From assembly GCA_965644295.1 (NCBI GenBank), contig CBFFRP010000577.1, forward strand, positions 1-64,000: DNA of 64,000 nt, read 5' to 3'. A model generated the notes under the pieces. The model saw only the letters and a list, made by a program, of their open reading frames with translations. It ran no database searches and had not been told where the DNA came from. Positions 1-58,900 of this stretch are shown in pieces. Each line of letters opens with the position of its first letter. The first letter of the stretch is position 1. This stretch comes from Paraphysomonas bandaiensis. Lineage: Eukaryota > Protista > Chrysophyceae. A program made the translations under genes and the position numbers.

Positions 1-2150
1 ATTATTTATTATAATCCCTTCTCTGTGTGCTGCTCTCCAGTATTTGCTGGTAGACATCTTATACAACTGGGCAGCATGATAAGTAGAACCCGATCAAAGA
101 TCATCAATAGGATCTGTGTCTCCCTGGTCCTCTTGTTCTCGCACAAGCATTCGCACATCCCCTTTCTCGTTTCCTAGTTTCCTCTGGTACCAAGGAACAC
201 TCTCTTTCGGAGTCCTTTGTTGAGGCCAAGGCGAAGTCCTAGTAGGCATTTCCTTAATTCCAAACCTGGCATTCATAGCTCGAAGTGTCTCTTTAAGAAT
301 CTCCTTATCATGAGAAAATTTGCAACTCTTGTCCTTGCACCCACCCTCTACATTCATTTCCTTAAAGCATGGACTCTTCTTGTAAACTTCTGTAGCCATC
401 ACATCCTCATTCACACTCTTAAGGTCATCATCCTTTGCATCATTGTTACTTTCCTTAGTCTGTTTCTCATTCTCATCCGAATCATCTTCTTCCTCCATCA
501 TAGCCAATATTGCAGCATTCAATTGAGGCTTTGTTTGGAAATTAAACCTGCCCTTGAATTGTTGATACTTCTCAGAAAGCTCCCTTGTTACTCTTAGATG
601 TTCGAAAAACTCTTCAAAGAATGATTCCACTGAGTTGAAATTCTCTGTTCTCAATAATCTCTTACTGGTGTCTCTCATACAAGGTGGTATCAAACTCATC
701 CAGACTTCCAGTGACCCACCTCGTTTGGTGGTAGTTAGAGGTATACTCAAAGTCAAGTGATTTACTTTTGCTGCATCCACCAAGAAGTCATATCTCTGAA
801 TAAACTTAGTTTCGAGAATACATATATCTTCATCAGCTTTCCTGAAATCCTCCAGCCTCTCCATATTAACCTTGTATGCTTTGCAAGATTTGTACAATAT
901 TTTGTTGAATGCCATTACGTCCAAGGGTTTAAATAAACGTTTAACTGCCTCAATGATATGTGTGATCCTAGCATCAGTACACTCCAAGTATGTAGGGAAT
1001 TCTGTTGGATTCATGCGTCGCAGGGTATGACGAACCATGTCCCTTGCTCGATCTTTAAGCAAACTGTACACTGAAGGCACCGCTCTATTATAATTCCGTT
1101 TTTCATACTCAGCAATCTTCTCCATAAATGTCATGAAGCCGTCTAAAGTAATTTCCGTCAATTGGATCTTCAAGTATGAATTATCCTGTTGAGTCAATAC
1201 GACCTGACTAGTCCTGTCTTCGTCGGCCTGCCTTAGCGCTTCTTGAATAGTCTGTCTCCTAACATTCCTCCTCCTAGGCTGCTCTTCCTCTCTCAATACC
1301 TGTGTTGCGTTGAGTACGGCCTGTTGGACTGCGTCCTCGATTCTGGTCTGAAGTAGATCTGGGTCTATATATTGCTGTTCATGTACTGGTCCTTCAGCTT
1401 GTTCTTCTTGCTGTTGAACCTCTTCAATTTGATTCGTTGCCTCTTCATCAATCTGGGATATACCCCCTCCAAAATCTACTTCCGAATTAGCTGGAGTGGC
1501 TTGTCTTGAGGAACGTCGAGACTCCAGCTGCTGCATCCTTTGTTCGAACATTTCGAAATGAAGATCAATAGACTCAAAGCGTTTGTTCAGCTGCTCTTGC
1601 TGTTCAGCATACTGCTGCTGTTGTTGAGCAAACTGTTCATTCTGTTCAGCAAACCGCTGCTGAAGGAACTCCATAATGTTCGGAATCTCTTCTTCCGAAC
1701 TCATAGTCGACAACAATATAAATAAACAATGTTTCTTTCTATCCGACTAAAGTATTAATACTGTAATCTTTCTGATGAGAAAGACCGTGTTTACAACGTT
1801 TTATATGAATTTAAAGTGCTTCCCAAACCGAGAATACACTGTCCAGAACACCAAACCGGTGAAACTGCCTCCTAACACAAGCAAACCGCGAGTATAGAAT
1901 GAATTAAATTACGTTAAAACGTGTAAAGAAAGAAAGTGAAATCATACAACACTCTATCTTGCTGTGAATCATCTACAGTTTACAGTATCATACTTGTACA
2001 TATACGGGACTTATATCCCTTCAAGAATACAGTAACCGCAATGTATACTAAATAAACTGAAAATGAAAGTACAACAGCATGCTACCTAGAGTACCGCAGT
2101 ATAACACCGTATAACTCCACGTATAACAGTAACTGCAGGTATGCGTGACA
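1..2150 (-). mobile_element. 5' part of an LTR retrotransposon inserted in the PLV major capsid gene; putative 5' LTR about 1840-2150
   Basis: The minus strand begins TGTCACGC at 2150, exactly where capsid-like sequence stops. A possible LTR end ...GGACA lies at 1840. Base composition shifts from the AT-rich viral DNA. The second LTR is outside the window and no canonical tRNA PBS was seen. Confidence 0.6.
94..1716 (-). CDS. Gag-like protein of an LTR retrotransposon (N-terminal coiled coil, C-terminal CCCH-type zinc knuckle)
   Basis: Intronless 540-aa ORF with a Q/E-rich coiled-coil N-terminus and CFKEMNVEGGCKDKSCKFSH near the C-terminus. It lies directly behind an LTR-like segment. The same frame stays open for 31 codons past the stop to the window edge (possible pol start). 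Gag identity is inferred from architecture. Confidence 0.7.
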   Translation of the reverse strand: MLSTMSSEEEIPNIMEFLQQRFAEQNEQFAQQQQQYAEQQEQLNKRFESIDLHFEMFEQRMQQLESRRSSRQATPANSEVDFGGGISQIDEEATNQIEEVQQQEEQAEGPVHEQQYIDPDLLQTRIEDAVQQAVLNATQVLREEEQPRRRNVRRQTIQEALRQADEDRTSQVVLTQQDNSYLKIQLTEITLDGFMTFMEKIAEYEKRNYNRAVPSVYSLLKDRARDMVRHTLRRMNPTEFPTYLECTDARITHIIEAVKRLFKPLDVMAFNKILYKSCKAYKVNMERLEDFRKADEDICILETKFIQRYDFLVDAAKVNHLTLSIPLTTTKRGGSLEVWMSLIPPCMRDTSKRLLRTENFNSVESFFEEFFEHLRVTRELSEKYQQFKGRFNFQTKPQLNAAILAMMEEEDDSDENEKQTKESNNDAKDDDLKSVNEDVMATEVYKKSPCFKEMNVEGGCKDKSCKFSHDKEILKETLRAMNARFGIKEMPTRTSPWPQQRTPKESVPWYQRKLGNEKGDVRMLVREQEDQGDTDPIDDL

Positions 2151-2368
2151 ACAGCTCCCGCTGAATTTTTAGCAATCAAGCTTAATTTTAAAAGTGAATC
2201 AGCACCAGACATTACGATATTACGACCGGTAGGAATATTAATAATTATTGTTTCTCCTGGTCCATAAGGACCTAAACCATTCTGAGGAGCTATATTATTC
2301 TGGTAATTACGTGCGTAACTTGAATTTATATTATTTGTGTATAATACGTTTTTTGGTAATCCTGACAT
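2151..2368 (-). pseudogene. N-terminus of PLV major capsid protein (double jelly-roll), interrupted by retroelement
   Basis: MSGLPKNVLYTNNINSSYARNYQNNIAPQNGLGPYGPGETIIINIPTGRNIVMSGADSLLKL fits the PLV MCP N-terminal pattern (LP..L.Y...S..AR.Y...I.PQNG...Y..G.TI.I.IP...S.LK). The ORF tail at 2048-2150 is read-through into LTR DNA. Confidence 0.75.
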
Positions 2369-2416
2369 ATATACTATAAATAGATAAATATTTTTTATAG
2401 TATAATAAAATATAAT

Positions 2417-2857
2417 TTATATAAATGTGCTATCATCTTGTGTTAACTTAACTAAAGCCTTTCTTGTGTTGTGTTTTTCTAATTTATTACCTGCGTTATG
2501 TGCTTTTTTAAATGCTTTTTTGCTGTGTTTATCGGCTTTATTATGTAGCTTATGGAGCTTATGCACACCTTTATGACCTTCGTGTAATCCTGCTTCCAGT
2601 AATCGGGATGCTGATCCAACAACGGGCATTGTATTTAATCCTGCTTCATTAATAGCATGTATAGTTTTATCGCCAACACCTAATATTTTATCTGCTATGT
2701 TAATTGCATTTGCCGATTTATCAAGACCTTTATTTACTCCATGTTGGACCTTGTCTAATACGTCGTGTGTTTTTTGTCCTAGTTTATGTATTCTGTGATC
2801 GGCCTTGCGACCTAGTTTGCGAAATTTACGATTTAGCTTTTTGCCTAGTTTTGACAT
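2417..2857 (-). CDS. Basic Lys/His-rich viral protein, putative genome-condensing core protein
   Basis: 146 aa with strongly basic ends (KLGKKLNRKFRKLGRK; HKGVHKLHKLHNK). It sits between the minor and major capsid genes. Function is inferred. Confidence 0.6.
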   Translation of the reverse strand: MSKLGKKLNRKFRKLGRKADHRIHKLGQKTHDVLDKVQHGVNKGLDKSANAINIADKILGVGDKTIHAINEAGLNTMPVVGSASRLLEAGLHEGHKGVHKLHKLHNKADKHSKKAFKKAHNAGNKLEKHNTRKALVKLTQDDSTFI

Positions 2858-2887
2858 GTATATATACTATATTGAGAGAAATATTTT

Positions 2888-3619
2888 TTATTCAATAGTT
2901 AATAATAAATTTAAAGACCAATGTAAACCGTTTAATTCTAATATATCTGCGTCTTGATCTAATAATTGGACATGTAGAGTATTTATATTATGTATATCAT
3001 GTACTAAGCTCTTAATATTATTAATATTTTTATAATTAATAATAGATCCTGCGTTAACATCAACAGGTACAGAAGTAATAATAGAAGCTTTATTAGGTGT
3101 GGCACTATTTATATTATTTAAAACAAAATTAGACGATGCTATTAAAACGTTTCTTACTGTAAATAGATTTATACCAATTGTTGATAATAATATTAATGAA
3201 TCTGAATAATAGGTTGTATTATCTTCAAATCCTAATAATTCAAAACAGGTTGAAGTATTTGAAAAAGAAAAATCATAAGTACTGTGGGTAAATAATAATT
3301 TATTAGTTGATGAGTTATAATTTATTGTAAATCCTGGCTCTAAATTGGACTGTAAATAACTTATTAATGTTCTAATATTATAATTGGCTTTTGTTATTGT
3401 AAGTGAATATGAGATACTATTTAATGTATAATTCAGTGTGTTATTGGTTGAATTAACATTATAAAAAGAGTACGGTATAGAGGCATCAATTACTGATATA
3501 TAGGCTTTATGGCGTCGTTTAACATCTATCTTTGGTAATATAAAAATACAATCAGTAGTTTTATTATTTAGGTATTGGTTTGCTGTCTTGCTGTTTAGTA
3601 CAATCTGTATTTTCTCCAT
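2888..3619 (-). CDS. PLV minor capsid (penton, single jelly-roll) protein
   Basis: About 243 aa, beta-rich, with motifs typical of PLV minor capsids: IVLNSK, ASIPYSFYNVNSTNN, LLGF, and C-terminal VQLLDQDADILELNGLHWSLNL. Close to the MCP gene. Confidence 0.75.
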   Translation of the reverse strand: MEKIQIVLNSKTANQYLNNKTTDCIFILPKIDVKRRHKAYISVIDASIPYSFYNVNSTNNTLNYTLNSISYSLTITKANYNIRTLISYLQSNLEPGFTINYNSSTNKLLFTHSTYDFSFSNTSTCFELLGFEDNTTYYSDSLILLSTIGINLFTVRNVLIASSNFVLNNINSATPNKASIITSVPVDVNAGSIINYKNINNIKSLVHDIHNINTLHVQLLDQDADILELNGLHWSLNLLLTIE

Positions 3620-3809
3620 TAACATTATCAGATATATTTATATTTGCAAAATCATAGGTTAACATGTCTGTATCTATATTGTTATTTCTATTTAATTTTG
3701 GTATGTCTAATTTTATTACTCTGTCTAAGTCTATAACATTTTTCTTTGGAAATTCATAATAATTATAATCTATTTCCCATTCTAGGCTGTCCATATATAA
3801 GTATATCAC
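3564..3809 (-). CDS. Small hypothetical viral protein
   Basis: Short ORF in the viral gene array, overlapping the minor capsid start; likely start MDSLEW. Confidence 0.4.
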   Translation of the reverse strand: MIYLYMDSLEWEIDYNYYEFPKKNVIDLDRVIKLDIPKLNRNNNIDTDMLTYDFANINISDNVNGENTDCTKQQDSKPIPK

Positions 3810-3879
3810 ATAATATATTTATATATTTTACATCTAAGGGATAATTTTGCGAACTATTATCGCGTTTTTATCCCTTAAT

Positions 3880-4293
3880 TTATCTCATCAAATTATCAAT
3901 AACATTTAATGAGTATTTCCATTTTTTTGTTTTCATTTTCTTCTCATTTCCGTCGTTTTCCGCTACATAGTCAACAGCATTCCAGAGCTTTTTCCATAAA
4001 TAACCATCTTTAAAAATATTTTCGTTCTTTCTTTCTTTTAAACCATTTTCAATAATGTATTGCTCATATGTTTCAACTGTGTAAGGGCGATTTAATATAA
4101 CAGAACAAAAAGAACTTTTAAAACGTTTATATATTATATCCTGAACTTCATCAGCTGATTTACTTAATTTATGCTTTCGGCAGTCAGAAGAACTGCAATG
4201 ATTATATATATCGTTATCATCATCCACGCAGTCACCGTTTAATTCATTATCAACATTTTCACAACAACTAAAATATTTAATTCCGTATCCCAT
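3880..4293 (-). CDS. Hypothetical viral protein, paralogue of 4685-5116
   Basis: Shares IKYFSCCENVD, SDC.KHKL...ADEV.DII.KRFK, ENDGN..KM and KW.YS.NV.D with 4685-5116. Confidence 0.75.
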   Translation of the reverse strand: MGYGIKYFSCCENVDNELNGDCVDDDNDIYNHCSSSDCRKHKLSKSADEVQDIIYKRFKSSFCSVILNRPYTVETYEQYIIENGLKERKNENIFKDGYLWKKLWNAVDYVAENDGNEKKMKTKKWKYSLNVIDNLMR

Positions 4294-4331
4294 TATAATA
4301 TATAACTATATATTTTATTTATTATAATATT

Positions 4332-4616
4332 TTATTTCCATCCTACAGAATCACTGCGATATTCACCGTGTAGAAAATCATATTTTCTTAATAATTCAGT
4401 CCTTTTATCTTCGTCTTTATTTTCATATATGATTAATTGCCGATCATTTAATAGCTCTACTTGTAACTCTTTCTTTTGTTTCTGAAGTTCTGATAATGTA
4501 ATTTTCATGTCTTCTATTTCTCTATCTAAATTCCTTATCTCTTCCTGAATTTTAGGCATATGTGTTTTTCTAATGCAGTATACTTCACCTTTTAACTTTA
4601 ATAAATACTCACTCAT
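4332..4616 (-). CDS. Hypothetical viral coiled-coil protein
   Basis: 94-aa ORF with a heptad pattern, preceded by the shared upstream motif. Confidence 0.65.
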   Translation of the reverse strand: MSEYLLKLKGEVYCIRKTHMPKIQEEIRNLDREIEDMKITLSELQKQKKELQVELLNDRQLIIYENKDEDKRTELLRKYDFLHGEYRSDSVGWK

Positions 4617-4684
4617 TATAATATATAACTATATATTTTTTTTAATTATTTTATATTTTTACATATGTAATAATTGAAATAAAT

Positions 4685-5116
4685 TTAAAAAATTATTTTA
4701 TCAACGACATTCATTGAATATGTCCACTTATCCGCTTCCATTTTCTCTTTATTGCCGTCATTTTCAATAATATAAACAACTGATTCCCAAAACTTATTTT
4801 TAAGATAAAATTCATCTTGAATATCATCGCCTTCATTTTCTCTTAAACCTGAATCAATAATAAATTTATCATGCCATTCGTAACATTCAGGTGAATTGTT
4901 ACATGGTACAAAACTAAGGAGACTACTATATATAGCATCCTTTTTAAACCGTTTGCTTATTATATCATTGACTTCATCAGCTGGCCTATTTAACTTGTGT
5001 TTTAGACAGTCAGAAGGATTTTTATGAACATATTTTTTATGTTTGTAATAGTACTTACCGTTACGCTCGGAATCAACATTTTCACAACAACTGAAATATT
5101 TTATTTCTTTTGACAT
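4685..5116 (-). CDS. Hypothetical viral protein, paralogue of 3880-4293
   Basis: Clear paralogy and the shared upstream motif. Confidence 0.75.
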   Translation of the reverse strand: MSKEIKYFSCCENVDSERNGKYYYKHKKYVHKNPSDCLKHKLNRPADEVNDIISKRFKKDAIYSSLLSFVPCNNSPECYEWHDKFIIDSGLRENEGDDIQDEFYLKNKFWESVVYIIENDGNKEKMEADKWTYSMNVVDKIIF

Positions 5117-5329
5117 TATAATATAACTATATATTTTTTTTTAATTATTTTATATTTTTACATATGTAAAATAGGGAGTAAAATACGGCATGTCTATATA
5201 TAGTGTTAAACAGGTCTATTGTTCCGTCTATCTGTTGTAGTTGTTCGGTGTTTAAGTTTGGTTTCTGTCCGTCAATGTAATATATGTAGTGTTGTATTAT
5301 TGTATTTATAGTGTTTTGTGTATTTTGAG

Positions 5330-5642
5330 TGGACGTTTTTGTGGACATTTTTTGTTAAATTTTATATTCACAACATTTTTTTTGTGTTTTTTTTATATTT
5401 TTGTTAAAAATGTCCTTGAAAATGTCCATCAAAGTGTCCATATATAAGTATATACAGTTACAATATTGTAATAATATATATTTGTATTAAAATAATATGT
5501 CCTTGAAAGTGTCCTTCAAAGTGTCCATTATTATTGTAAGTGATAAAGAGTAATACCATAGGGGCAATGTTGGTGTATATTAATAGTTTTCATGGTCACG
5601 GTTAACACTGTACAGGGGGTGAAATCCCCCTCTCCTCTCTCT
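5330..5642. repeat. Putative PLV terminal region with TGTCC iteron-like repeats and a terminal hairpin
   Basis: Repeated (A/G)TGTCC units at about 12-bp spacing (5406-5440, 5496-5528), inverted GGAC copies (5331-5351), hairpin AGGGGG-TGAAAT-CCCCCT (5614-5631), then TCTCCTCTCTCT. Confidence 0.55.
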
Positions 5643-6489
5643 TTTTTTTATATTCCAGCTTCACTACTATGATTGATATACTATGATTGATATCATGACA
5701 TTAGTTTTCATAATACAGTTACCGCTTCTGTATTCTTCAATTAATAGTCATAGTTCAAATATCTTTGAAAACTCACTTCCTTTGTAACTATATTCACCCA
5801 TTGCACTAATGAGTTGATTTCACTTATTGCAACTATTAACTATTTCCTATTAACTATACATCTATACACTATATAATATCATACAGCAGATTTAAAGATG
5901 ATCAATAGGGTATACCTAGTTATCGTAAGTCCTACAGTGAGAGAATTTCCTGAAAGGAAATTCAAGACGTATGTGCCCCTTTCCGAAGTGTAGTGTAGGC
6001 TGGCTGGTACACCACTTCTAGCACCGAGATATAGAACTGATTCTACCACCCGCCTACCTGTGTACCAACGTAGCTGACCGCATAGATCACGCGCAGTATT
6101 AATTTATGCTTTTAGTTAGTGCTATATTGACGGATTGATATTATAGGAGATATAGTAAGTTTATGATGTTGTAGTATTGTGAGTTAGGAACCACGTCAGT
6201 CACCAACATCAACATTCTTTTCTACAAATCATATCTTTAACAGCCACTATATTTTCAGTTTCTTTGTATACTTGTAATAGCTACTCCTATACTGTAGTCA
6301 TGTATATTCTGTATTCATTGCTACATAGAATACAGGATAACTACTAGCGATTGGCTTTACCAAACTTCAAGTACGCACGTAGGAGTTGGTTGTAGTTCAA
6401 TACGCAGATTCTGTTGTCGCCCCACCCGTGTTCACTTTCGCTAAGATTACGCGGGATATCTCACAAATACGCATGAATTTATGCATGAC

Positions 6490-6660
6490 TTTTACTCAGA
6501 TTCTATTAGGACCAAGCAATATGCGTTTGAGAGCCTGAACCAGCTCAGTAGCTACATGAATACTAGTCAAGCTAGATAAGCGTTTACCATAACATAACTA
6601 ATGCATACTCTAATATCCTACTATTTAACGCTACGAAAGTTGCTTGTGCCGCACGTAAGA
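6490..6660 (-). repeat. Diverged 3' fragment of the ribozyme-headed retroposon family
   Basis: Aligns by eye with 9005-9160 (agtagcta.atgaat.ctag...atcctact.tttaacgctacg.aag.tgcttgtgc). Confidence 0.65.
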
Positions 6661-7223: not shown

Positions 7224-7538
7224 GTTGCATAGTCACACCTACTAGAAACTTCGCCACTGTAGTCGGCGATTTCGAGATCTTTGGCTTTCTTCACTCTCAC
7301 CATCAGTTTCATACATTGGGTTGCTCTGGCAAATAAAGCCAAGCTTTTCATATGATGATAAGTGCAATAGCGGCATCCTTTAATCCAACCACAGTCCAGT
7401 GTCCCTGACATACTCCTCACTGCCAGAGCAACCCAATGTATGAAACAGATGATGAGAGTGATAGCGAAGAGAGTCAGAGATCTCGAGATCCCCGACTATG
7501 CGTGGCGAAGATTCTAGCTGACAGTGTGACTCAGCAAC
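7224..7538. repeat. Long inverted repeat (about 110-bp arms, 89-bp spacer)
   Basis: 7306-7331 is the exact reverse complement of 7421-7446; imperfect pairing extends to 7224/7538. Confidence 0.85.
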
Positions 7539-8999: not shown

Positions 9000-9503
9000 T
9001 ATTGAAACTCTTATTATTAGCAATAGGCGCTAAAAACCTGCAACAACTTAGTAGCTAGATGAATGCTAGACAAACTAGTTAGACCTCTACCTGTAACTAA
9101 TCAGTACACACTTTCTTTATCCTACTGTTTAACGCTACGGAAGCTGCTTGTGCGTCGCCGCAAGCACCAAGGTGCGACCACTCACGTTCTGAGTCCTTAA
9201 GGTGAACATCCTGGATGCTTGACTTCAGCAGGCAGCCCAATATCCCGGTTACCCTTCAGGTTGGCCCTGTCCCGGATGCCCTTGAGGTGGGGCCATTCCC
9301 GGATGCCTGTTTATTCGTCACGGCCCAAAGACGTCTACACAAGTGACACTTATTGGTGTCCCTTGTACCACACAAGCATTCGGCTATGAGTGGGCAGAAG
9401 ACTAATATCTGCTGACTATGTTTGCGGCTCACGTTAGTTTCCCAGAGAGGTACTTATCCCCCAGAACACCACGAAAAGGTATGACTCCGACTTTGTTGAG
9501 GGT
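9000..9503 (-). mobile_element. Non-autonomous retroposon (SINE/SIDE-like), copy 1
   Basis: Highly similar to 24969-25494 over its full length. Flanked by an imperfect 14-bp duplication, AAGAATATGATATA (8986-8999) / AAGAGTATGATATA (9504-9517). Confidence 0.8.
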
Positions 9504-9904: not shown

Positions 9905-11074
9905 TTAAGAAGACTTGGAGGCAAGGGTGCCAAGGAACTTGTTCTTCTCCTCCAGGGTCTGGAAGCGTCCGTGACCGTACTTGGATGAGGTGTCGATGAA
10001 CTTGACGTTGAGGGGCTCCAAGTGGCTTCTCTTGGTAGCAGCAACAATGCTCTTCCTGAGGGTGATGGGCCTCTTGCGAGCACCACCAACACACCCCTTG
10101 ATCATAACCCAATCCTCATTCACCTCTCCGTAGTGGGGGAATCCACCAACAGGTGTAATAGACTTCTCGGTGAGATCGATCTCGGTGGTGCAGCTCTTTT
10201 GGTCGCCCTTCTTGCCGATGCGGAGCACTCTCTTGTTGATTTCCGTGCGGTGGTGGTAGCCCTTCTGACCGGCACGGGCAACAGTGGTGCTGACGCGGGC
10301 AGGATGCCAGGATCCGATACAGGCAACCTTACGAAGACCACGGTGAGTCTTGCGAGGAAGACGAGTAACACCCCAACGGCTGACAACACCCTGAGTACCA
10401 TGACCGCGGGTGGCGGAGCAGATATCAAGAACTTCACCCTCACTGAAAACGGTGTCCACTGCCACCTCCTGCTCGAAGAGGTTCTTCGCGAAGTCAACCT
10501 TCTCGGAGACCTCTCCACCGTTGAGCTGAATCTCAAGAAGGTTAGCAACCTTCTGGCGGAGCTTCAACTTGCGGATCTGGGTGTGGGCAAGGACGCGCAC
10601 AACCTGGCAGTACTTCTTAATGCGCTCAAGTTCGAATTCGATATCCTGGGGCTTCTCGGCACACTTCTTAGCGTACTTGGTGAAGGCCTTTCTCTTGGAG
10701 CGGTACCAGTTCTTGTAGAATCTGCGCTTGACCTCATCAGACAAGTGACCAGCCCACACAGTGGTGAGGGAACGAAGACCATTAGGAGTCTCAACATATC
10801 CGACAACACCGACAACAGTCATAGGAGGGGTCTCAAGGATGGTAACAGCCTCAACAGCGTCCTTCTTGTGGAGCTTAGAGCCAGGGCGCTCGATCTCACG
10901 GACAACGTGAGTCATACCGGCCTTGTATCCCATGAAGGCAGTCATGTGGACAGGAGCCTTGGAGTCTGTGTCCTTGGGGAAGGAGCGGATGCGACCGCGA
11001 TGGTGCTTTGTTCTCTTCTTGGGAAGATACTGCAGAGAACCGCATCTAGGATGTTCGAACTTACGGTGAGACAT
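9905..11074 (-). CDS. RPL3: 60S ribosomal protein L3 (uL3)
   Basis: [14 protein letters not shown]..., [34 protein letters not shown]; intronless with strong codon bias. Confidence 0.99.
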
Positions 11075-22337: not shown

Positions 22338-22849
22338 TATGTATGTATGTATGTATGTATGTATGTATGTATGTATGTATGTATGTATGTATGTATGTAT
22401 GTATGTATGTATGTATGTATGTATGTATGTATGTATGTATGTATGTATGTATGTATGTATGTATGTATGTATGTATGTATGTATGTATGTATGTATGTAT
22501 GTATGTATGTATGTATGTATGTATGTATGTATGTATGTATGTATGTATGTATGTATGTATGTATGTATGTATGTATGTATGTATGTATGTATGTATGTAT
22601 GTATGTATGTATGTATGTATGTATATAGAGGTATGTATGTATGTATGTATGTATGTATGTATGTATGTATGTATGTATGTATGTATGTATGTATGTATGT
22701 ATGTATGTATGTATGTATGTATGTATGTATGTATGTATGTATGTATGTATGTATGTATGTATGTATGTATGTATGTATGTATGTATGTATGTATGTATGT
22801 ATGTATGTATGTATGTATGTATGTATGTATATAGAGGTATGTATGTATG
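22338..22849. repeat. (TATG)n microsatellite, about 510 bp
   Basis: Pure tetranucleotide array with two identical ATAGAG interruptions (~22625, ~22831). Confidence 0.98.
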
Positions 22850-22957
22850 GCGTGTGTATGTATGTACAGTGAGCTCTTCTCTATGTTAGTATGGTGTGCA
22901 TGTGTATGTATGTATAGCCTGCATGTATCTGGAGTAGACCTCATATGAGATATCAAC

Positions 22958-24968: not shown

Positions 24969-25494
24969 ATTGAAACTCTTATTATTAGCAATAGGCGCTA
25001 AAAAAATAGATCCCTTAAAAACCTGCACCAAATTAGTAGCTAGATGAATGCTAGACAAACTAGTTAGACCTCTACCTGTAACTAATCAGTACACTCTTTT
25101 TTTATCCTACTACTGAACGCTACGGAAGCTGCTTGTGCGTCGCCGCAAGTACCAAGGTGCGACCACTTCCGCTCTTAGTTCTTAAGGTGAACATCCTGGA
25201 TGCTTGACTTCAGCAGGCAGCCCAATACCCCGGTTACCCTTCAGGTTGGCCCTGTCCCGGATGCCCTTGAGGTGGGCCCATTCCCGGATGCCTGTTTATT
25301 CGTCAGGGCCCAAAGACGTCTACACAAGTGACACTTATTGGTGTCTCTTGTACCACACAAGCATTCGGCTATGAGTGGGCAGAAGAATATCTGCTTCTAT
25401 GTTTGCGGCTCACGTTAGTTTCCCAGAGAGAATCTCTCCGGTACTTATCCCCCAGAACACCACGAAAAGGTGCGAGTCCGACTTTGTTGAGGGT
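24969..25494 (-). mobile_element. Non-autonomous retroposon (SINE/SIDE-like), copy 2, best preserved
   Basis: Perfect 12-bp target-site duplication GCCATAAACTAT (24957-24968 and 25495-25506). No ORF, no TIRs, same boundaries as copy 1. Confidence 0.85.
25407..25494 (-). ncRNA. Putative HDV-like self-cleaving ribozyme at the retroposon 5' end
   Basis: Minus strand: P2 CUCGC, P3 ACC, L3 UUUUCGU, P3' GGU, P1' GUUCUGGG, P4 hairpin CCGGAGAG-AUU-CUCUCUGG, J4/2 CUAA, P2' GUGAG. P1 and P1.1 are non-canonical. Confidence 0.55.
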
Positions 25495-49787: not shown

Positions 49788-49948
49788 AGGAGAGACGTGT
49801 ATTCAAGCAAGTTGTCTACTGTATTCAAGTACTTTGACTCGAATTTATATTAATAGTCGACGTACATTAATATCCTGAATTGCATCTGATATAATGGCAA
49901 ATAAGTGCACCCTCCGGACCCCTCACGAGTCCAACTGGATAGTGAGCG

Positions 49949-52900
49949 ATGAAACTGTATCAATGCATGTGCTGGTGGGCTGTTCTCAATCTTGTAAACT
50001 GTTTCAAGTTAAGCGGGAGGACTTGGATGAGACGATCGGATAAATCAGATGAATTGAAGTTTGTTAGCATAGCTTCCAACCCACAGCTGAGAGATCACTT
50101 TGAGTCTGCTGTTGAGAGCAGTGATCCACTTGATAATGACAAACCACAGCAGCCAGCAGGTGTGGAGTCTGGGGCACACAGCTTATCTAATCAAAACCAA
50201 ACTGCGTCGCCTACACTGGACACAGCACTCCCAACGGTTACTCCCACAGCTTCCTTTATTTATATACTGGTGCCACGACCAACCTACAATAAACCTTTAA
50301 TGCAGAAGAATGCAAAGAAGTCACCCAAACAATCTGGTAAACGAAAGAGACATAGCAAAAGAAGACCCAGAAAAAAGAAACGGCACCACCACCACCACAA
50401 GAAGAAACGCACCACAAAACCGACAAACATAATAACTGAGTTTCCCACGAGTGTGAATACTTCGTTGTTTCCTTCAACGACTCCATCCGTCACACTACCT
50501 AGTACAGGTCCCTCAGTGAGTGAGCCAACGTCGACGACAACTGTGTTTCCCACGAGTGTGAATACTTCGTTGTTTCCTTCAACGACTCCATCCGTCACAC
50601 TACCTAGTACAGGTCCCTCAGTGAGTGAGCCAACGTCGACGACAACTGTGTTTCCCACGAGTGTGAATACTTCGTTGTTTCCTTCAACGACTCCATCCGT
50701 CACACTACCTAGTACAGGTCCCTCAGTGAGTGAGCCAACGTCGACGACAACTGTGTTTCCCACGAGTGTGAATACTTCGTTGTTTCCTTCAACAACTCCA
50801 TCCGTCACACTACCTAGTACAGGTCCCTCAGTGAGTGAGCCAACGTCGACGACAACTGTGTTTCCCACGAGTGTGAATACTTCGTTGTTTCCTTCAACGA
50901 CTCCATCCGTCACACTACCTAGTACAGGTCCCTCAGTGAGTGAGCCAACGTCGACGACAACTGTGTTTCCCACGAGTGTGAATACTTCGTTGTTTCCTTC
51001 AACGACTCCATCCGTCACACTACCTAGTACAGGTCCCTCAGTGAGTGAGCCAACGTCGACGACAACTGTGTTTCCCACGAGTGTGAATACTTCGTTGTTT
51101 CCTTCAACAACTCCATCCGTCACACTACCTAGTACAGGTCCCTCAGTGAGTGAGCCAACGTCGACGACAACTGTGTTTCCCACGAGTGTGAATACTTCGT
51201 TGTTTCCTTCAACGACTCCATCCGTCACACTACCTAGTACAGGTCCCTCAGTGAGTGAGCCAACGTCGACGACAACTGTGTTTCCCACGAGTGTGAATAC
51301 TTCGTTGTTTCCTTCAACGACTCCATCCGTCACACTACCTAGTACAGGTCCCTCAGTGAGTGAGCCAACGTCGACGACAACTGTGTTTCCCACGAGTGTG
51401 AATACTTCGTTGTTTCCTTCAACAACTCCATCCGTCACACTACCTAGTACAGGTCCCTCAGTGAGTGAGCCAACGTCGACGACAACTGTGTTTCCCACGA
51501 GTGTGAATACTTCGTTGTTTCCTTCAACGACTCCATCCGTCACACTACCTAGTACAGGTCCCTCAGTGAGTGAGCCAACGTCGACGACAACTGTGTTTCC
51601 CACGAGTGTGAATACTTCGTTGTTTCCTTCAACGACTCCATCCGTCACATTACCTAGTACAGGTCCCTCAGTGAGTGAGCCAACGTCGACGACAACTGTG
51701 TTTCCCACGAGTGTGAATACTTCGTTGTTTCCTTCAACGACTCCATCCGTCACACTACCTAGTACAGGTCCCTCAGTGAGTGAGCCAACGTCGACGACAA
51801 CTGTGTTTCCCACGAGTGTGAATACTTCGTTGTTTCCTTCAACGACTCCATCCGTCACACTACCTAGTACAGGTCCCTCAGTGAGTGAGCCAACGTCGAC
51901 GACAACTGTGTTTCCCACGAGTGTGAATACTTCGTTGTTTCCTTCAACGACTCCATCCGTCACACTACCTAGTACAGGTCCCTCAGTGAGTGAGCCAACG
52001 TCGACGACAACTGTGTTTCCCACGAGTGTGAATACTTCGTTGTTTCCTTCAACGACTCCATCCGTCACACTACCTAGTACAGGTCCCTCAGTGAGTGAGC
52101 CAACGTCGACGACAACTGTGTTTCCCACGAGTGTGAATACTTCGTTGTTTCCTTCAACGACTCCATCCGTCACACTACCTAGTACAGGTCCCTCAGTGAG
52201 TGAGCCAACGTCGACGACAACTGTGTTTCCCACGAGTGTGAATACTTCGTTGTTTCCTTCAACAACTCCATCCGTCACACTACCTAGTACAGGTCCCTCA
52301 GTGAGTGAGCCAACGTCGACGACAACTGTGTTTCCCACGAGTGTGAATACTTCGTTGTTTCCTTCAACGACTCCATCCGTCACACTACCTAGTACAGGTC
52401 CCTCAGTGAGTGAGCCAACGTCGACGACAACTGTGTTTCCCACGAGTGTGAATACTTCGTTGTTTCCTTCAACGACTCCATCCGTCACACTACCTAGTAC
52501 AGGTCCCTCAGTGAGTGAGCCAACGTCGACGACAACTGTGTTTCCCACGAGTGTGAATACTTCGTTGTTTCCTTCAACAACTCCATCCGTCACACTACCT
52601 AGTACAGGTCCCTCAGTGAGTGAGCCAACGTCGACGACAACTGTGTTTCCCACGAGTGTGAATACTTCGTTGTTTCCTTCAACGACTCCATCCGTCACAC
52701 TACCTAGTACAGGTCCCTCAGTGAGTGAGCCAACGTCGACGACAACTGTGTTTCCCACGAGTGTGAATACTTCGTTGTTTCCTTCAACGACTCCATCCGT
52801 CACATTACCTAGTACAGGTCCCTCAGTGAGTGAGCCAACGTCGACGACAACTGTGTTTCCCACGAGTGTGAATACTTCGTTGTTTCCTTCAACGACTCCA

Positions 52901-55900
52901 TCCGTCACACTACCTAGTACAGGTCCCTCAGTGAGTGAGCCAACGTCGACGACAACTGTGTTTCCCACGAGTGTGAATACTTCGTTGTTTCCTTCAACGA
53001 CTCCATCCGTCACACTACCTAGTACAGGTCCCTCAGTGAGTGAGCCAACGTCGACGACAACTGTGTTTCCCACGAGTGTGAATACTTCGTTGTTTCCTTC
53101 AACGACTCCATCCGTCACACTACCTAGTACAGGTCCCTCAGTGAGTGAGCCAACGTCGACGACAACTGTGTTTCCCACGAGTGTGAATACTTCGTTGTTT
53201 CCTTCAACAACTCCATCCGTCACACTACCTAGTACAGGTCCCTCACCAACGACTCCATCCGTCACACTACCTAGTACAGGTCCCTCAGTGAGTGAGCCAA
53301 CGTCGACGACAACTGTGTTTCCCACGAGTGTGAATACTTCGTTGTTTCCTTCAACGACTCCATCCGTCACACTACCTAGTACAGGTCCCTCAGTGAGTGA
53401 GCCAACGTCGACGACAACTGTGTTTCCCACGAGTGTGAATACTTCGTTGTTTCCTTCAACGACTCCATCCGTCACACTACCTAGTACAGGTCCCTCAGTG
53501 AGTGAGCCAACGTCGACGACAACTGTGTTTCCCACGAGTGTGAATACTTCGTTGTTTCCTTCAACGACTCCATCCGTCACACTACCTAGTACAGGTCCCT
53601 CAGTGAGTGAGCCAACGTCGACGACAACTGTGTTTCCCACGAGTGTGAATACTTCGTTGTTTCCTTCAACGACTCCATCCGTCACACTACCTAGTACAGG
53701 TCCCTCAGTGAGTGAGCCAACGTCGACGACAACTGTGTTTCCCACGAGTGTGAATACTTCGTTGTTTCCTTCAACAACTCCATCCGTCACACTACCTAGT
53801 ACAGGTCCCTCAGTGAGTGAGCCAACGTCGACGACAACTGTGTTTCCCACGAGTGTGAATACTTCGTTGTTTCCTTCAACGACTCCATCCGTCACACTAC
53901 CTAGTACAGGTCCCTCAGTGAGTGAGCCAACGTCGACGACAACTGTGTTTCCCACGAGTGTGAATACTTCGTTGTTTCCTTCAACGACTCCATCCGTCAC
54001 ACTACCTAGTACAGGTCCCTCAGTGAGTGAGCCAACGTCGACGACAACTGTGTTTCCCACGAGTGTGAATACTTCGTTGTTTCCTTCAACAACTCCATCC
54101 GTCACACTACCTAGTACAGGTCCCTCAGTGAGTGAGCCAACGTCGACGACAACTGTGTTTCCCACGAGTGTGAATACTTCGTTGTTTCCTTCAACGACTC
54201 CATCCGTCACACTACCTAGTACAGGTCCCTCAGTGAGTGAGCCAACGTCGACGACAACTGTGTTTCCCACGAGTGTGAATACTTCGTTGTTTCCTTCAAC
54301 GACTCCATCCGTCACATTACCTAGTACAGGTCCCTCAGTGAGTGAGCCAACGTCGACGACAACTGTGTTTCCCACGAGTGTGAATACTTCGTTGTTTCCT
54401 TCAACGACTCCATCCGTCACACTACCTAGTACAGGTCCCTCAGTGAGTGAGCCAACGTCGACGACAACTGTGTTTCCCACGAGTGTGAATACTTCGTTGT
54501 TTCCTTCAACGACTCCATCCGTCACACTACCTAGTACAGGTCCCTCAGTGAGTGAGCCAACGTCGACGACAACTGTGTTTCCCACGAGTGTGAATACTTC
54601 GTTGTTTCCTTCAACGACTCCATCCGTCACACTACCTAGTACAGGTCCCTCAGTGAGTGAGCCAACGTCGACGACAACTGTGTTTCCCACGAGTGTGAAT
54701 ACTTCGTTGTTTCCTTCAACAACTCCATCCGTCACACTACCTAGTACAGGTCCCTCAGTGAGTGAGCCAACGTCGACGACAACTGTGTTTCCCACGAGTG
54801 TGAATACTTCGTTGTTTCCTTCAACGACTCCATCCGTCACACTACCTAGTACAGGTCCCTCAGTGAGTGAGCCAACGTCGACGACAACTGTGTTTCCCAC
54901 GAGTGTGAATACTTCGTTGTTTCCTTCAACGACTCCATCCGTCACACTACCTAGTACAGGTCCCTCAGTGAGTGAGCCAACGTCGACGACAACTGTGTTT
55001 CCCACGAGTGTGAATACTTCGTTGTTTCCTTCAACGACTCCATCCGTCACACTACCTAGTACAGGTCCCTCAGTGAGTGAGCCAACGTCGACGACAACTG
55101 TGTTTCCCACGAGTGTGAATACTTCGTTGTTTCCTTCAACGACTCCATCCGTCACACTACCTAGTACAGGTCCCTCAGTGAGTGAGCCAACGTCGACGAC
55201 AACTGTGTTTCCCACGAGTGTGAATACTTCGTTGTTTCCTTCAACGACTCCATCCGTCACACTACCTAGTACAGGTCCCTCAGTGAGTGAGCCAACGTCG
55301 ACGACAACTGTGTTTCCCACGAGTGTGAATACTTCGTTGTTTCCTTCAACAACTCCATCCGTCACACTACCTAGTACAGGTCCCTCAGTGAGTGAGCCAA
55401 CGTCGACGACAACTGTGTTTCCCACGAGTGTGAATACTTCGTTGTTTCCTTCAACGACTCCATCCGTCACACTACCTAGTACAGGTCCCTCAGTGAGTGA
55501 GCCAACGTCGACGACAACTGTGTTTCCCACGAGTGTGAATACTTCGTTGTTTCCTTCAACGACTCCATCCGTCACACTACCTAGTACAGGTCCCTCAGTG
55601 AGTGAGCCAACGTCGACGACAACTGTGTTTCCCACGAGTGTGAATACTTCGTTGTTTCCTTCAACGACTCCATCCGTCACACTACCTAGTACAGGTCCCT
55701 CAGTGAGTGAGCCAACGTCGACGACAACTGTGTTTCCCACGAGTGTGAATACTTCGTTGTTTCCTTCAACAACTCCATCCGTCACACTACCTAGTACAGG
55801 TCCCTCAGTGAGTGAGCCAACGTCGACGACAACTGTGTTTCCCACGAGTGTGAATACTTCGTTGTTTCCTTCAACGACTCCATCCGTCACACTACCTAGT

Positions 55901-58900
55901 ACAGGTCCCTCAGTGAGTGAGCCAACGTCGACGACAACTGTGTTTCCCACGAGTGTGAATACTTCGTTGTTTCCTTCAACGACTCCATCCGTCACACTAC
56001 CTAGTACAGGTCCCTCAGTGAGTGAGCCAACGTCGACGACAACTGTGTTTCCCACGAGTGTGAATACTTCGTTGTTTCCTTCAACAACTCCATCCGTCAC
56101 ACTACCTAGTACAGGTCCCTCAGTGAGTGAGCCAACGTCGACGACAACTGTGTTTCCCACGAGTGTGAATACTTCGTTGTTTCCTTCAACGACTCCATCC
56201 GTCACACTACCTAGTACAGGTCCCTCAGTGAGTGAGCCAACGTCGACGACAACTGTGTTTCCCACGAGTGTGAATACTTCGTTGTTTCCTTCAACGACTC
56301 CATCCGTCACACTACCTAGTACAGGTCCCTCAGTGAGTGAGCCAACGTCGACGACAACTGTGTTTCCCACGAGTGTGAATACTTCGTTGTTTCCTTCAAC
56401 AACTCCATCCGTCACACTACCTAGTACAGGTCCCTCAGTGAGTGAGCCAACGTCGACGACAACTGTGTTTCCCACGAGTGTGAATACTTCGTTGTTTCCT
56501 TCAACGACTCCATCCGTCACACTACCTAGTACAGGTCCCTCAGTGAGTGAGCCAACGTCGACGACAACTGTGTTTCCCACGAGTGTGAATACTTCGTTGT
56601 TTCCTTCAACGACTCCATCCGTCACACTACCTAGTACAGGTCCCTCAGTGAGTGAGCCAACGTCGACGACAACTGTGTTTCCCACGAGTGTGAATACTTC
56701 GTTGTTTCCTTCAACAACTCCATCCGTCACACTACCTAGTACAGGTCCCTCAGTGAGTGAGCCAACGTCGACGACAACTGTGTTTCCCACGAGTGTGAAT
56801 ACTTCGTTGTTTCCTTCAACGACTCCATCCGTCACACTACCTAGTACAGGTCCCTCAGTGAGTGAGCCAACGTCGACGACAACTGTGTTTCCCACGAGTG
56901 TGAATACTTCGTTGTTTCCTTCAACGACTCCATCCGTCACACAACCTAGTACAGGTCCCTCAGTGAGTGAGCCAACGTCGACGACAACTGTGTTTCCCAC
57001 GAGTGTGAATACTTCGTTGTTTCCTTCAACGACTCCATCCGTCACACTACCTAGTACAGGTCCCTCAGTGAGTGAGCCAACGTCGACGACAACTGTGTTT
57101 CCCACGAGTGTGAATACTTCGTTGTTTCCTTCAACAACTCCATCCGTCACACTACCTAGTACAGGTCCCTCAGTGAGTGAGCCAACGTCGACGACAACTG
57201 TGTTTCCCACGAGTGTGAATACTTCGTTGTTTCCTTCAACGACTCCATCCGTCACACTACCTAGTACAGGTCCCTCAGTGAGTGAGCCAACGTCGACGAC
57301 AACTGTGTTTCCCACGAGTGTGAATACTTCGTTGTTTCCTTCAACGACTCCATCCGTCACACTACCTAGTACAGGTCCCTCAGTGAGTGAGCCAACGTCG
57401 ACAACAACTGTGTTTCCCACGAGTGTGAATACTTCGTTGTTTCCTTCAACGACTCCATCCGTCACACTACCTAGTACAGGTCCCTCAGTGAGTGAGCCAA
57501 CGTCGACGACAACTGTGTTTCCCACGAGTGTGAATACTTCGTTGTTTCCTTCAACGACTCCATCCGTCACACTACCTAGTACAGGTCCCTCAGTGAGTGA
57601 GCCAACGTCGACGACAACTGTGTTTCCCACGAGTGTGAATACTTCGTTGTTTCCTTCAACGACTCCATCCGTCACACTACCTAGTACAGGTCCCTCAGTG
57701 AGTGAGCCAACGTCGACGACAACTGTGTTTCCCACGAGTGTGAATACTTCGTTGTTTCCTTCAACGACTCCATCCGTCACACTACCTAGTACAGGTCCCT
57801 CAGTGAGTGAGCCAACGTCGACGACAACTGTGTTTCCCACGAGTGTGAATACTTCGTTGTTTCCTTCAACGACTCCATCCGTCACACTACCTAGTACAGG
57901 TCCCTCAGTGAGTGAGCCAACGTCGACAACAACTGTGTTTCCCACGAGTGTGAATACTTCGTTGTTTCCTTCAACGACTCCATCCGTCACACTACCTAGT
58001 ACAGGTCCCTCAGTGAGTGAGCCAACGTCGACGACAACTGTGTTTCCCACGAGTGTGAATACTTCGTTGTTTCCTTCAACGACTCCATCCGTCACACTAC
58101 CTAGTACAGGTCCCTCAGTGAGTGAGCCAACGTCGACGACAACTGTGTTTCCCACGAGTGTGAATACTTCGTTGTTTCCTTCAACGACTCCATCCGTCAC
58201 ACTACCTAGTACAGGTCCCTCAGTGAGTGAGCCAACGTCGACGACAACTGTGTTTCCCACGAGTGTGAATACTTCGTTGTTTCCTTCAACGACTCCATCC
58301 GTCACACTACCTAGTACAGGTCCCTCAGTGAGTGAGCCAACGTCGACGACAACTGTGTTTCCCACGAGTGTGAATACTTCGTTGTTTCCTTCAACGACTC
58401 CATCCGTCACACTACCTAGTACAGGTCCCTCAGTGAGTGAGCCAACGTCGACGACAACTGTGTTTCCCACGAGTGTGAATACTTCGTTGTTTCCTTCAAC
58501 GACTCCATCCGTCACACTACCTAGTACAGGTCCCTCAGTGAGTGAGCCAACGTCGACGACAACTGTGTTTCCCACGAGTGTGAATACTTCGTTGTTTCCT
58601 TCAACGACTCCATCCGTCACACTACCTAGTACAGGTCCCTCAGTGAGTGAGCCAACGTCGACAACAACTGTGTTTCCCACGAGTGTGAATACTTCGTTGT
58701 TTCCTTCAACGACTCCATCCGTCACACTACCTAGTACAGGTCCCTCAGTGAGTGAGCCAACGTCGACGACAACTGTGTTTCCCACGAGTGTGAATACTTC
58801 GTTGTTTCCTTCAACGACTCCATCCGTCACACTACCTAGTACAGGTCCCTCAGTGAGTGAGCCAACGTCGACGACAACTGTGTTTCCCACGAGTGTGAAT

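What the first reader, a model, noticed from the sequence alone, without database searches (positions are those of the whole stretch)
1..5642. Nested parasites: LTR retroelement inserted into the major capsid gene of an endogenous Polinton-like virus
Seen: an MCP-like ORF breaks after about 73 codons (…NSAGAV), exactly where a TGTCAC-starting non-coding segment and a gag-like ORF begin in the same orientation. Known: integrated virophages and PLVs are common in protists, and Cafeteria EMALEs are often interrupted by Ngaro (tyrosine recombinase) retrotransposons. Inferred: here the invader is LTR-type and hits the capsid gene. That would either inactivate the provirus or let the retroelement hitchhike if capsids are supplied in trans.
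Basis: partly seen in the sequence, partly recalled or inferred. Interest (0 to 1): 0.8.

Follow-up and report, generated by a model that had tools for sequence, protein, structure and literature searches.

The report
Retrotransposon breaks integrated virus capsid gene
A jumping gene with long terminal repeats, likely of the Gypsy type, begins exactly inside the main capsid gene of a small DNA virus integrated in the genome of what is likely a marine protist, and this likely disables one of many viral copies by chance, a kind of nested parasitism that is already on record.

Summary
The capsid gene (2151-2368, minus strand) breaks after 72 codons and 2 bases, exactly where a multi-copy LTR begins. 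The LTR is 1762-2150 (389 bp, TG...CA), not 1840-2150. A 451-aa relative (95% identical over 65 residues) folds as a double jelly roll, and the upstream gene folds like a virophage penton. The gag's relatives are fused to protease-RT-RNase H-integrase, the Ty3/Gypsy order. Public runs hold uninterrupted capsid alleles, many virus copies and many retroelement copies whose listed flanks are GC-rich, unlike this AT-rich virus. The best reading is a passive hit that disables one copy. The far end, second LTR and target duplication of this copy lie outside the window, and no listed contig bridged the junction. Side features: a palindrome in place of the tRNA primer site (this scan noted it before in this genome and at least 7 genomes in all), a CCCH finger in gag, and a family-wide in-frame stop before pol. 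A word search found no earlier scan note on a capsid-gene insertion.

The parts
1..93 (-). Start of pol, in the same frame as gag after a TGA; runs off the window just before the protease motif
   Evidence: 10 of 15 residues identical to P0078 613-627, which precedes its protease motif at 642; tblastn of P0078 485-627 spans window 462-10 across the stop
94..1704 (-). gag, 536 aa, coiled-coil N-terminus, CCCH finger at residues 446-465
   Evidence: ORF; cluster of 25 near-identical proteins; 47 relatives at E<=0.001, among them gag-pol fusions P0078 and P0112; finger pattern
1705..1750 (-). Short AT-rich leader between primer site and gag start
   Evidence: sequence; 26% GC for 1705-1761
1751..1762 (.). 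Perfect 12-nt palindrome (10 nt after the LTR plus the LTR's last base and one more) where a tRNA primer site is expected
   Evidence: identical in L049
1762..2150 (-). 5' LTR, 389 bp, TGTCA...TTACA
   Evidence: contig ends, depth steps and loose ends at both borders; 384 of 387 aligned bases identical to the L049 copy
2151..2368 (-). 5' 16% of the major capsid gene, cut by the LTR
   Evidence: relative P0002 folds as double jelly roll
2417..2857 (-). Small basic protein (146 aa) between penton and capsid genes; DNA-binding core role is a guess
   Evidence: ORF with the shared upstream motif; no family at cut-off
2888..3625 (-). Minor capsid (penton) gene, 245 aa, intact
   Evidence: model pLDDT 85.5; best fold matches mavirus penton E 2.7e-9 and Sputnik minor capsid E 7.4e-7; homologue upstream of the capsid gene in 45 of 48 viral loci
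3564..5147 (-). Four small viral ORFs of unknown function; 3880-4293 and 4685-5116 are paralogues (45% identical)
   Evidence: no family at cut-off
5148..5642 (.). Terminal non-coding region of the virus with 12-bp and ~50-bp repeats and an AG-rich end; likely one terminal inverted repeat
   Evidence: repeats; AT-rich block 2151-5642 is 27% GC against 42-43% for host stretches; beyond 5656 contigs fall to single-copy depth

Best explanation
A multi-copy LTR retrotransposon, likely Ty3/Gypsy, begins inside codon 73 of the major capsid gene of an integrated Polinton-like virus, likely placed there by its own integrase without aiming at viruses, so this viral copy can no longer encode a whole capsid protein and likely persists as a passenger while sister copies keep intact genes. 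Shown: the exact join of the LTR's first base to capsid codon 73, both LTR borders, a polypurine tract before other copies of the LTR, the capsid and penton folds, uninterrupted capsid alleles in two runs. Inferred: integrase-made insertion (by kinship to gag-pol relatives), a full ~6 kb element with a second LTR and the rest of the capsid gene beyond position 1, lack of targeting, and survival of the insertion because a silent, redundant viral copy costs the host little to lose. The element itself likely makes Gag-Pol by reading through a conserved TGA and likely primes reverse transcription without a tRNA 3' end, at the palindrome; both untested.
For: Join at the LTR's first base, defined independently by L049 and by contig ends. 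TG...CA ends. Polypurine tract before the LTR in L049 and as loose ends at 2150 in X3 (7 contigs) and X15. Gag relatives P0078 (32% identity, E 1e-28) and P0112 (28%, E 8e-6) carry RT, RNase H, then integrase. Loose end before 2152 in X3 and X8 reads on in frame as capsid sequence, and one before 2170 in X8 matches the P0002 allele (read by hand against the alignment). Single-contig depth over host-flank depth: gag 14x and 20-22x, LTR 39-44x and 73-86x, virus 7-10x and 18x in X11 and X8; virus 11-23x in X3 (rough, see full report). The 6 listed non-tract flanks at the LTR borders hold 93 G+C in 175 letters (53%, counted by hand) against 27% for the virus here and 25-31% for three related viruses. 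0 of 48 related viral loci hold a Gypsy pol.
Against: No listed contig bridges the junction (tables cut). The far side of this copy is unseen. The uninterrupted allele seen differs from the window at the last base before the LTR, so it is a sister allele and not the exact pre-insertion state. Under assumed numbers (20-40 insertions, 15 viral copies of 18 kb, genome 50-200 Mb) a random hit in this virus family has a chance of 3-20% and in its capsid gene 0.2-1.6%, so some bias towards viral DNA is not excluded, although the case was picked after the fact from many element pairs. Pol of this exact family was not retrieved. Six flanks are a small, tool-selected sample.
Confidence: 0.8

Rival explanations
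1. Targeted nesting with hitchhiking: the family prefers AT-rich viral DNA, and the composite genome is excised and packaged in capsids made by sister copies, carrying the retrotransposon to new hosts.
For: Intact capsid alleles and many sister copies are in the same runs. The penton gene and the viral end are intact. Low random chance for a hit in the capsid gene under assumed numbers. Ngaro types 1 and 2a do prefer virophage DNA in Cafeteria (PMC8547959, passages).
Against: The 6 listed other flanks are 53% GC. 0 of 48 related viral loci carry Gypsy pol; scans of the viral collection with the gag alignment, an LTR pattern and P0078 found no copy (with 33, 76; these scans reach close relatives only). 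An added ~6 kb on a genome of ~18-20 kb (sizes inferred from relatives) would strain packaging. A carrier gains more from a harmless site than from the capsid gene.
Confidence: 0.07
2. The join is real but is not a simple insertion any more: recombination between LTR copies or a deletion has removed or moved the rest of the virus, leaving a 3.5-kb viral end next to a retrotransposon.
For: LTR depth is about three to four times gag depth, more than the twofold of full elements, so solo LTRs or derivatives exist; a deletion derivative is seen in L049 and as loose ends in X3 and X8. The far side is unseen.
Against: Gag is intact and 98-99% identical to four family members, and the LTR differs from the L049 copy at 3 of 387 bases plus one 2-base gap, which suggests a young insertion with little time for rearrangement.
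Confidence: 0.08
3. Assembly chimera of two multi-copy repeats.
For: Both sides are multi-copy, the window starts inside the element, and no listed contig bridges the join.
Against: The join falls on the LTR's first base with no shared sequence between LTR and capsid gene to mislead an assembler; the virus copy and its host flank match X1 and X3 contigs without differences at single-copy depth, though those runs may be the window's own source.
Confidence: 0.05

Closest known systems
Ty3/Gypsy retrotransposon embedded in a Polinton-like virus of the chrysophyte Hydrurus foetidus (PMC10120064, passages seen)
   Same: Gypsy element inside an integrated Polinton-like virus of an ochrophyte; Gypsy elements often near viral insertions.
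   Different: The passage does not say which gene was hit; here it is the major capsid gene.
Nested retroelements in cryptophyte and ochrophyte PLVs (PMC12220804, passages and Conclusions seen; supplement not seen) and in Tyrannomonas regina PLV-27 and PLV-155 (PMC12747079, passages seen)
   Same: GC-richer reverse-transcriptase elements with direct repeats of a few hundred bases disrupt viral genes; immobilisation, shuttle and supply in trans are all discussed; PLV-27 is judged a target and not a vehicle because an essential gene is hit and a copy lies outside the virus.
   Different: Genes named as hit are integrase and tail fibre; the text read names no capsid-gene case (its Fig. S7 may show one).
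Copia-like LTR element in the recombinase gene of a Guillardia theta PLV (PMC4642659, passages seen)
   Same: LTR element breaks an essential PLV gene; immobilisation or supply in trans proposed.
   Different: Copia, not Gypsy; recombinase, not capsid.
Ngaro retrotransposons in Cafeteria virophages (PMC8547959, passages seen)
   Same: Retrotransposon nested in an integrated small DNA virus of a marine stramenopile flagellate.
   Different: Ngaro has split direct repeats and a tyrosine recombinase, and a counted preference for viral DNA; the 7 genic hits listed there are primase/helicase, pPolB, MV12 and MV19. No preference is shown here.
Conserved Hairpin Site of fungal GalEa Copia elements (PMC5445492, passages seen)
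   Same: A palindrome that includes the LTR's last A stands where the tRNA primer site should be.
   Different: Copia, with a second complementary site 12-41 bp on; here no significant fold (z -0.57 and -1.73).
Tj1, Tosmo and Tcry1 Gypsy elements of fission yeasts (10.1101/2022.12.06.519325, passages seen)
   Same: In-frame TGA between gag and pol.
   Different: There TGA is followed by CT and priming is Tf1-type; here TGA is followed by TCG and no Tf1-type complement longer than 6 nt lies in the LTR.

Membership tests
Polinton-like viruses | Double jelly-roll major capsid protein | tested here: met
   P0002 (95% identical over 65 residues) modelled at pLDDT 80.6; best matches iridovirus and PBCV-1 major capsids, E 1e-17 to 1e-16; Pfam Capsid_N in 17 of 24 aligned members, not in P0002 or the window piece itself
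Polinton-like viruses | Single jelly-roll minor capsid (penton) | tested here: met
Polinton-like viruses | A32-type packaging ATPase | tested here: inconclusive
   Not in the 3.5 kb held; present upstream of the capsid pair in 3 of 3 relatives scanned (L043, L004, L007; about 38-40% capsid identity)
Polinton-like viruses | Integrase or recombinase and a replication gene | tested here: inconclusive
   Outside the window; L043 has an rve integrase and a D5-type gene, L007 a DUF5906 helicase-like gene (26 of the 45 long ORFs of three loci scanned)
Polinton-like viruses | 15-40 kb element with terminal inverted repeats and a target duplication | not testable with these tools
   Only one end is in the window; no genome held
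Polinton-like viruses | Integrated, AT-rich island in eukaryotic host DNA | tested here: met
   27% GC against 42-43%; ribosomal protein L3 gene 4.3 kb away; single-copy flank
Virophages (Lavidaviridae) | Virophage-type major capsid and maturation protease | tested here: inconclusive
   Sputnik capsid ranks 48th, below giant-virus-type capsids; no protease test run; not filed here
Ty3/Gypsy LTR retrotransposons | LTR with TG...CA ends | tested here: met
   1762-2150
Ty3/Gypsy LTR retrotransposons | Second LTR preceded by a polypurine tract | tested here: inconclusive
   Met for the family (L049; loose ends in X3 and X15); unseen for this copy
Ty3/Gypsy LTR retrotransposons | Pol order protease, RT, RNase H, integrase | tested here: inconclusive
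   Met in 2 of 2 full-length gag-pol relatives among 20 scanned; the window ends just before the protease; this family's own pol not retrieved
Ty3/Gypsy LTR retrotransposons | Primer site directly after the 5' LTR (tRNA-type in most members, self-priming in some) | tested here: inconclusive
   No TGG start and no Tf1-type complement; a perfect palindrome instead; internal tRNA pairing not testable, no tRNA in the window
Ty3/Gypsy LTR retrotransposons | 4-6 bp target site duplication | not testable with these tools
   Far end outside the window; in X11 one left flank ends and one right flank starts with the same 4 letters, which would mean 4 bp only if they are one locus
Ngaro/DIRS retrotransposons | Tyrosine recombinase and split direct repeats | tested here: not met
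   Relatives carry an integrase zinc-binding or rve domain and no recombinase hit; tract-LTR and LTR-gag joins fit ordinary LTRs
Ty1/Copia | Integrase before RT | tested here: not met
   Integrase follows RNase H in P0078 and P0112

The most novel reading that the evidence does not exclude
This Gypsy lineage, with a CCCH gag and a primer site that needs no host tRNA, rides Polinton-like viruses between hosts: the capsid-less composite is packaged by capsids from its ten or more intact sister copies, and the strain holding it offers a direct test of virus-borne transfer of an LTR retrotransposon in protists.
Probability: 0.05. Interest if true: 0.75.

Novelty: new member of a known kind. Interest (0 to 1): 0.3.

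Why it matters
As it most likely stands, it is one more case of a transposon knocking out a copy of an integrated protist virus; it adds a capsid-gene example to cases in integrase, recombinase and fibre genes. Its use is practical: a capsid-less copy with a unique junction and a single-copy marker segment, beside many intact sisters, is a ready marker for the open question whether broken integrated viruses are packaged in trans and carry passengers.

Tried and rejected
No whole genome held, so upstream sequence and genome-wide counts could not be had. LTR end at 1840: rejected. Virus inserted into the retrotransposon: rejected, the join is at the LTR's end and inside a viral gene. Ngaro or Copia identity: rejected. 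Pfam finds nothing on the window's gag or capsid piece; PDB sequence search with the capsid profile found only one chance match at E 0.72; PHROGs gave only weak matches at E 0.013-0.035. Gag alignment found no locus in metagenome or viral contigs; P0078 none in viral contigs; two viral contigs matching a 17-nt LTR pattern were chance. Search for this family's pol with the 42 residues around the stop found nothing (weak search). Penton and capsid scans of prokaryote genomes gave none and one short distant locus. ESM Atlas on the gag core gave 0.90 at best, clusters with CCCH fingers and, lower, retrotransposon gag: a lead only. No stable RNA fold at the primer site or after the gag stop (z -1.73 to +1.01). 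Run X15 (probably DNA by the tool's label) covers the LTR but not 2170-2289; a hole proves nothing, so no expression claim is made. Of 24 runs listed 5 were laid; the small-share RNA runs were not. The look-up of the host's L3 protein gave no name, so the host rests on one gag relative (about 48% identical family) from a record labelled Paraphysomonas and on marine metagenome holders. Paper searches for a CCCH gag in stramenopile Gypsy elements and for Paraphysomonas with Polinton and retrotransposon returned 0 papers; two searches returned no title on a capsid-gene insertion; subscription journals and Repbase are not covered.
Full report
Setting. The window is eukaryotic host DNA of 42-43% GC with a ribosomal protein L3 gene at 9905-11074. 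No genome is held. The stretch is held by 20 of 24 listed runs, among them cultured organisms under four coded names and marine metagenomes. A gag relative comes from a record labelled with the taxon number of Paraphysomonas, a chrysophyte genus. The host is therefore likely a marine chrysophyte or kin; this is a lead, not a proof.

The virus. 2151-5642 is 27% GC and carries six minus-strand ORFs, most with a shared AT-rich upstream motif. The ORF at 2368 matches ~450-aa proteins (26 hits among 67 candidates), the closest at 95% over 65 residues. Pfam's major capsid N-terminus family hits 17 of 24 aligned members, and the model of P0002 matches iridovirus and PBCV-1 double jelly-roll capsids at E 1e-17 to 1e-16. 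The ORF 2888-3625 models at pLDDT 85.5 and matches the mavirus penton best (E 2.7e-9); a homologue lies upstream of the capsid gene in 45 of 48 viral loci, the other 3 starting too close to the capsid gene to hold it. Three relatives scanned carry an A32-type ATPase, one an rve integrase (26 of 45 long ORFs scanned). The right end near 5642 is AG-rich and is followed by single-copy DNA. This is one end of a Polinton-like virus; its ATPase, integrase and other end are not in the window.

The retroelement. An exact 19-nt pattern found one metagenome contig, L049, which matches the window from exactly 2150 down into gag and has a polypurine tract where the window has capsid sequence. Laid contigs fix both borders: pieces end at 2150 and start at 1762, depth halves below 1762, unrelated flanks appear at 1762-1764 and 2151, and the tract appears as a loose end at 2150 in X3 (7 contigs) and X15. 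The gag has 47 relatives at E<=0.001. Of 20 scanned, two are whole polyproteins with RT, RNase H and integrase in Gypsy order, one more has a protease hit. The 31 codons after the gag stop continue in frame and match the stretch just before the protease of P0078. So pol starts at the window's edge, and the element is likely Ty3/Gypsy; its own pol was not retrieved.

The join. Viral sequence ends after 72 codons and 2 bases; the frame reads 33 codons into the LTR and stops. About 84% of the capsid gene is missing from this side. A loose end before 2152 in X3 and X8 reads on in frame as capsid sequence, and one before 2170 in X8 matches the P0002 allele (read by hand), so uninterrupted alleles exist. 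The first differs from the window at the last base before the LTR, so it is a sister allele. No listed piece bridges 2150/2151, but 1336 pieces were not shown. X1 and X3 match the window's flank and the segment 3818-4277 without differences at single-copy depth and may be the window's own source, so they are not independent.

How many copies, and where. The tool warns that summed depth is no copy number, so I used single listed contigs over a single-copy flank, which can still be off twofold if the flank is heterozygous: gag 14x (X11) and 20-22x (X8), LTR 39-44x and 73-86x, virus 7-10x (X11), 18x (X8), 11-23x (X3). Both families are multi-copy. The 6 listed flanks at the LTR borders other than the tract hold 53% G+C by hand count (93 of 175 letters; 10 loose-end rows not shown; loose ends inside the LTR left out), against 27% for the virus here and 25-31% for three relatives. 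None of 48 related viral loci holds a Gypsy pol. Against this, a rough sum with assumed genome sizes gives a random hit in this virus family 3-20% and in its capsid gene 0.2-1.6%; the case was chosen after the fact, and silent redundant DNA tolerates insertions better than host genes (established reasoning), so I take this as no evidence of targeting but not as proof against it.

Mechanism. Best reading (0.8): a young copy of a Gypsy family (gag 98-99% identical to four family members; LTR 384 of 387 bases identical to L049) was integrated into one viral copy, which lost its capsid gene and stays as a passenger. Rivals: later rearrangement (0.08), targeted nesting with packaging in trans (0.07), assembly chimera (0.05).

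Features of the element. (1) A perfect palindrome follows the LTR at once; chance for 5-6 pairs at a fixed site is about 0.001-0.0003 (three other perfect palindromes of 10-12 nt lie elsewhere in 1-2150). I tested presence and position in one family only, not covariation. (2) Gag has a CCCH finger, as do 13 of 15 relatives checked, and none of the 15 has CCHC; one paper search found nothing on it. (3) 39 of 45 listed members of three gag clusters, about 50% apart, end at the same site, so the stop is family-wide; read-through is the likely route, as for Tj1 (10.1101/2022.12.06.519325, passages), but the context is not the favoured TGA-C and no fold follows.

Known cases. A Ty3/Gypsy element inside a Hydrurus PLV (PMC10120064, passages); a Copia-like element in a Guillardia PLV recombinase, with supply in trans proposed (PMC4642659, passages); many nested elements with direct repeats that disrupt PLV genes, with immobilisation, shuttle and unlikely trans supply discussed (PMC12220804, passages and Conclusions; supplement not seen and may hold a capsid case); two cases in Tyrannomonas, the gene-breaking one judged a target and not a vehicle (PMC12747079, passages); Ngaro in Cafeteria virophages (PMC8547959, passages); MULE and LINE in Halocafeteria (10.64898/2026.07.28.741278, passages); Copia near Oxyrrhis PLVs (PMC12721341, passages). 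In the passages read none names the major capsid gene as the target, and searches listed no such title; that is a small difference.

Verdict. Real, well supported, and a new member of a known kind. Interest 0.3.

Noticed in passing
window 6092-6407: A 306-bp element (6097-6402) with TATT...AATA ends between two copies of a 5-bp sequence; contigs of all four runs skip it (joint 6091 to 6403) and depth there is high, so it is a multi-copy miniature element or solo repeat.
   Followed up: partly
window 6607-6649 and 9118-9153: A short repeat end with many loose ends sharing one continuation in all four runs (23-126 contigs per row); likely the end of another abundant mobile element.
   Followed up: no
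window 49946-64000: One open frame of over 4600 codons made of a 105-bp unit in about 130 near-identical copies, rich in Ser, Thr and Pro after a signal-like start; mucin-like surface protein or array.
   Followed up: no
window 3818-4300: The second copy of a duplicated small viral gene lies at single-copy depth in X1 and X3 and is skipped or replaced in other viral copies: a marker unique to this or few copies.
   Followed up: partly
L049 103-1166: A derivative with the same LTR and 5' gag, a deletion and then unrelated sequence; its joins also show as loose ends in X3 and X8: likely a non-autonomous family. The tract before its LTR means a tandem or a collapsed assembly.
   Followed up: partly
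window 94-96 and 1-93: Family-wide in-frame TGA between gag and pol, while distant relatives have one fused frame.
   Followed up: partly
window 310-369 (gag residues 446-465): CCCH zinc finger in place of the usual CCHC knuckle, shared by 13 of 15 relatives checked.
   Followed up: partly
window 7260-7498: Inverted repeat with arms of 41-46 nt, up to 95% complementary; possibly a miniature inverted-repeat element.
   Followed up: no
window 9243-9307 and 25229-25292: The same 27-bp tandem unit at two distant places.
   Followed up: no
L043 1366-1941: A SET-domain gene in a related Polinton-like virus (Pfam E 4.5e-7).
   Followed up: no
window 22338-22866: A (TATG)n microsatellite of about 133 units.
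   Followed up: no
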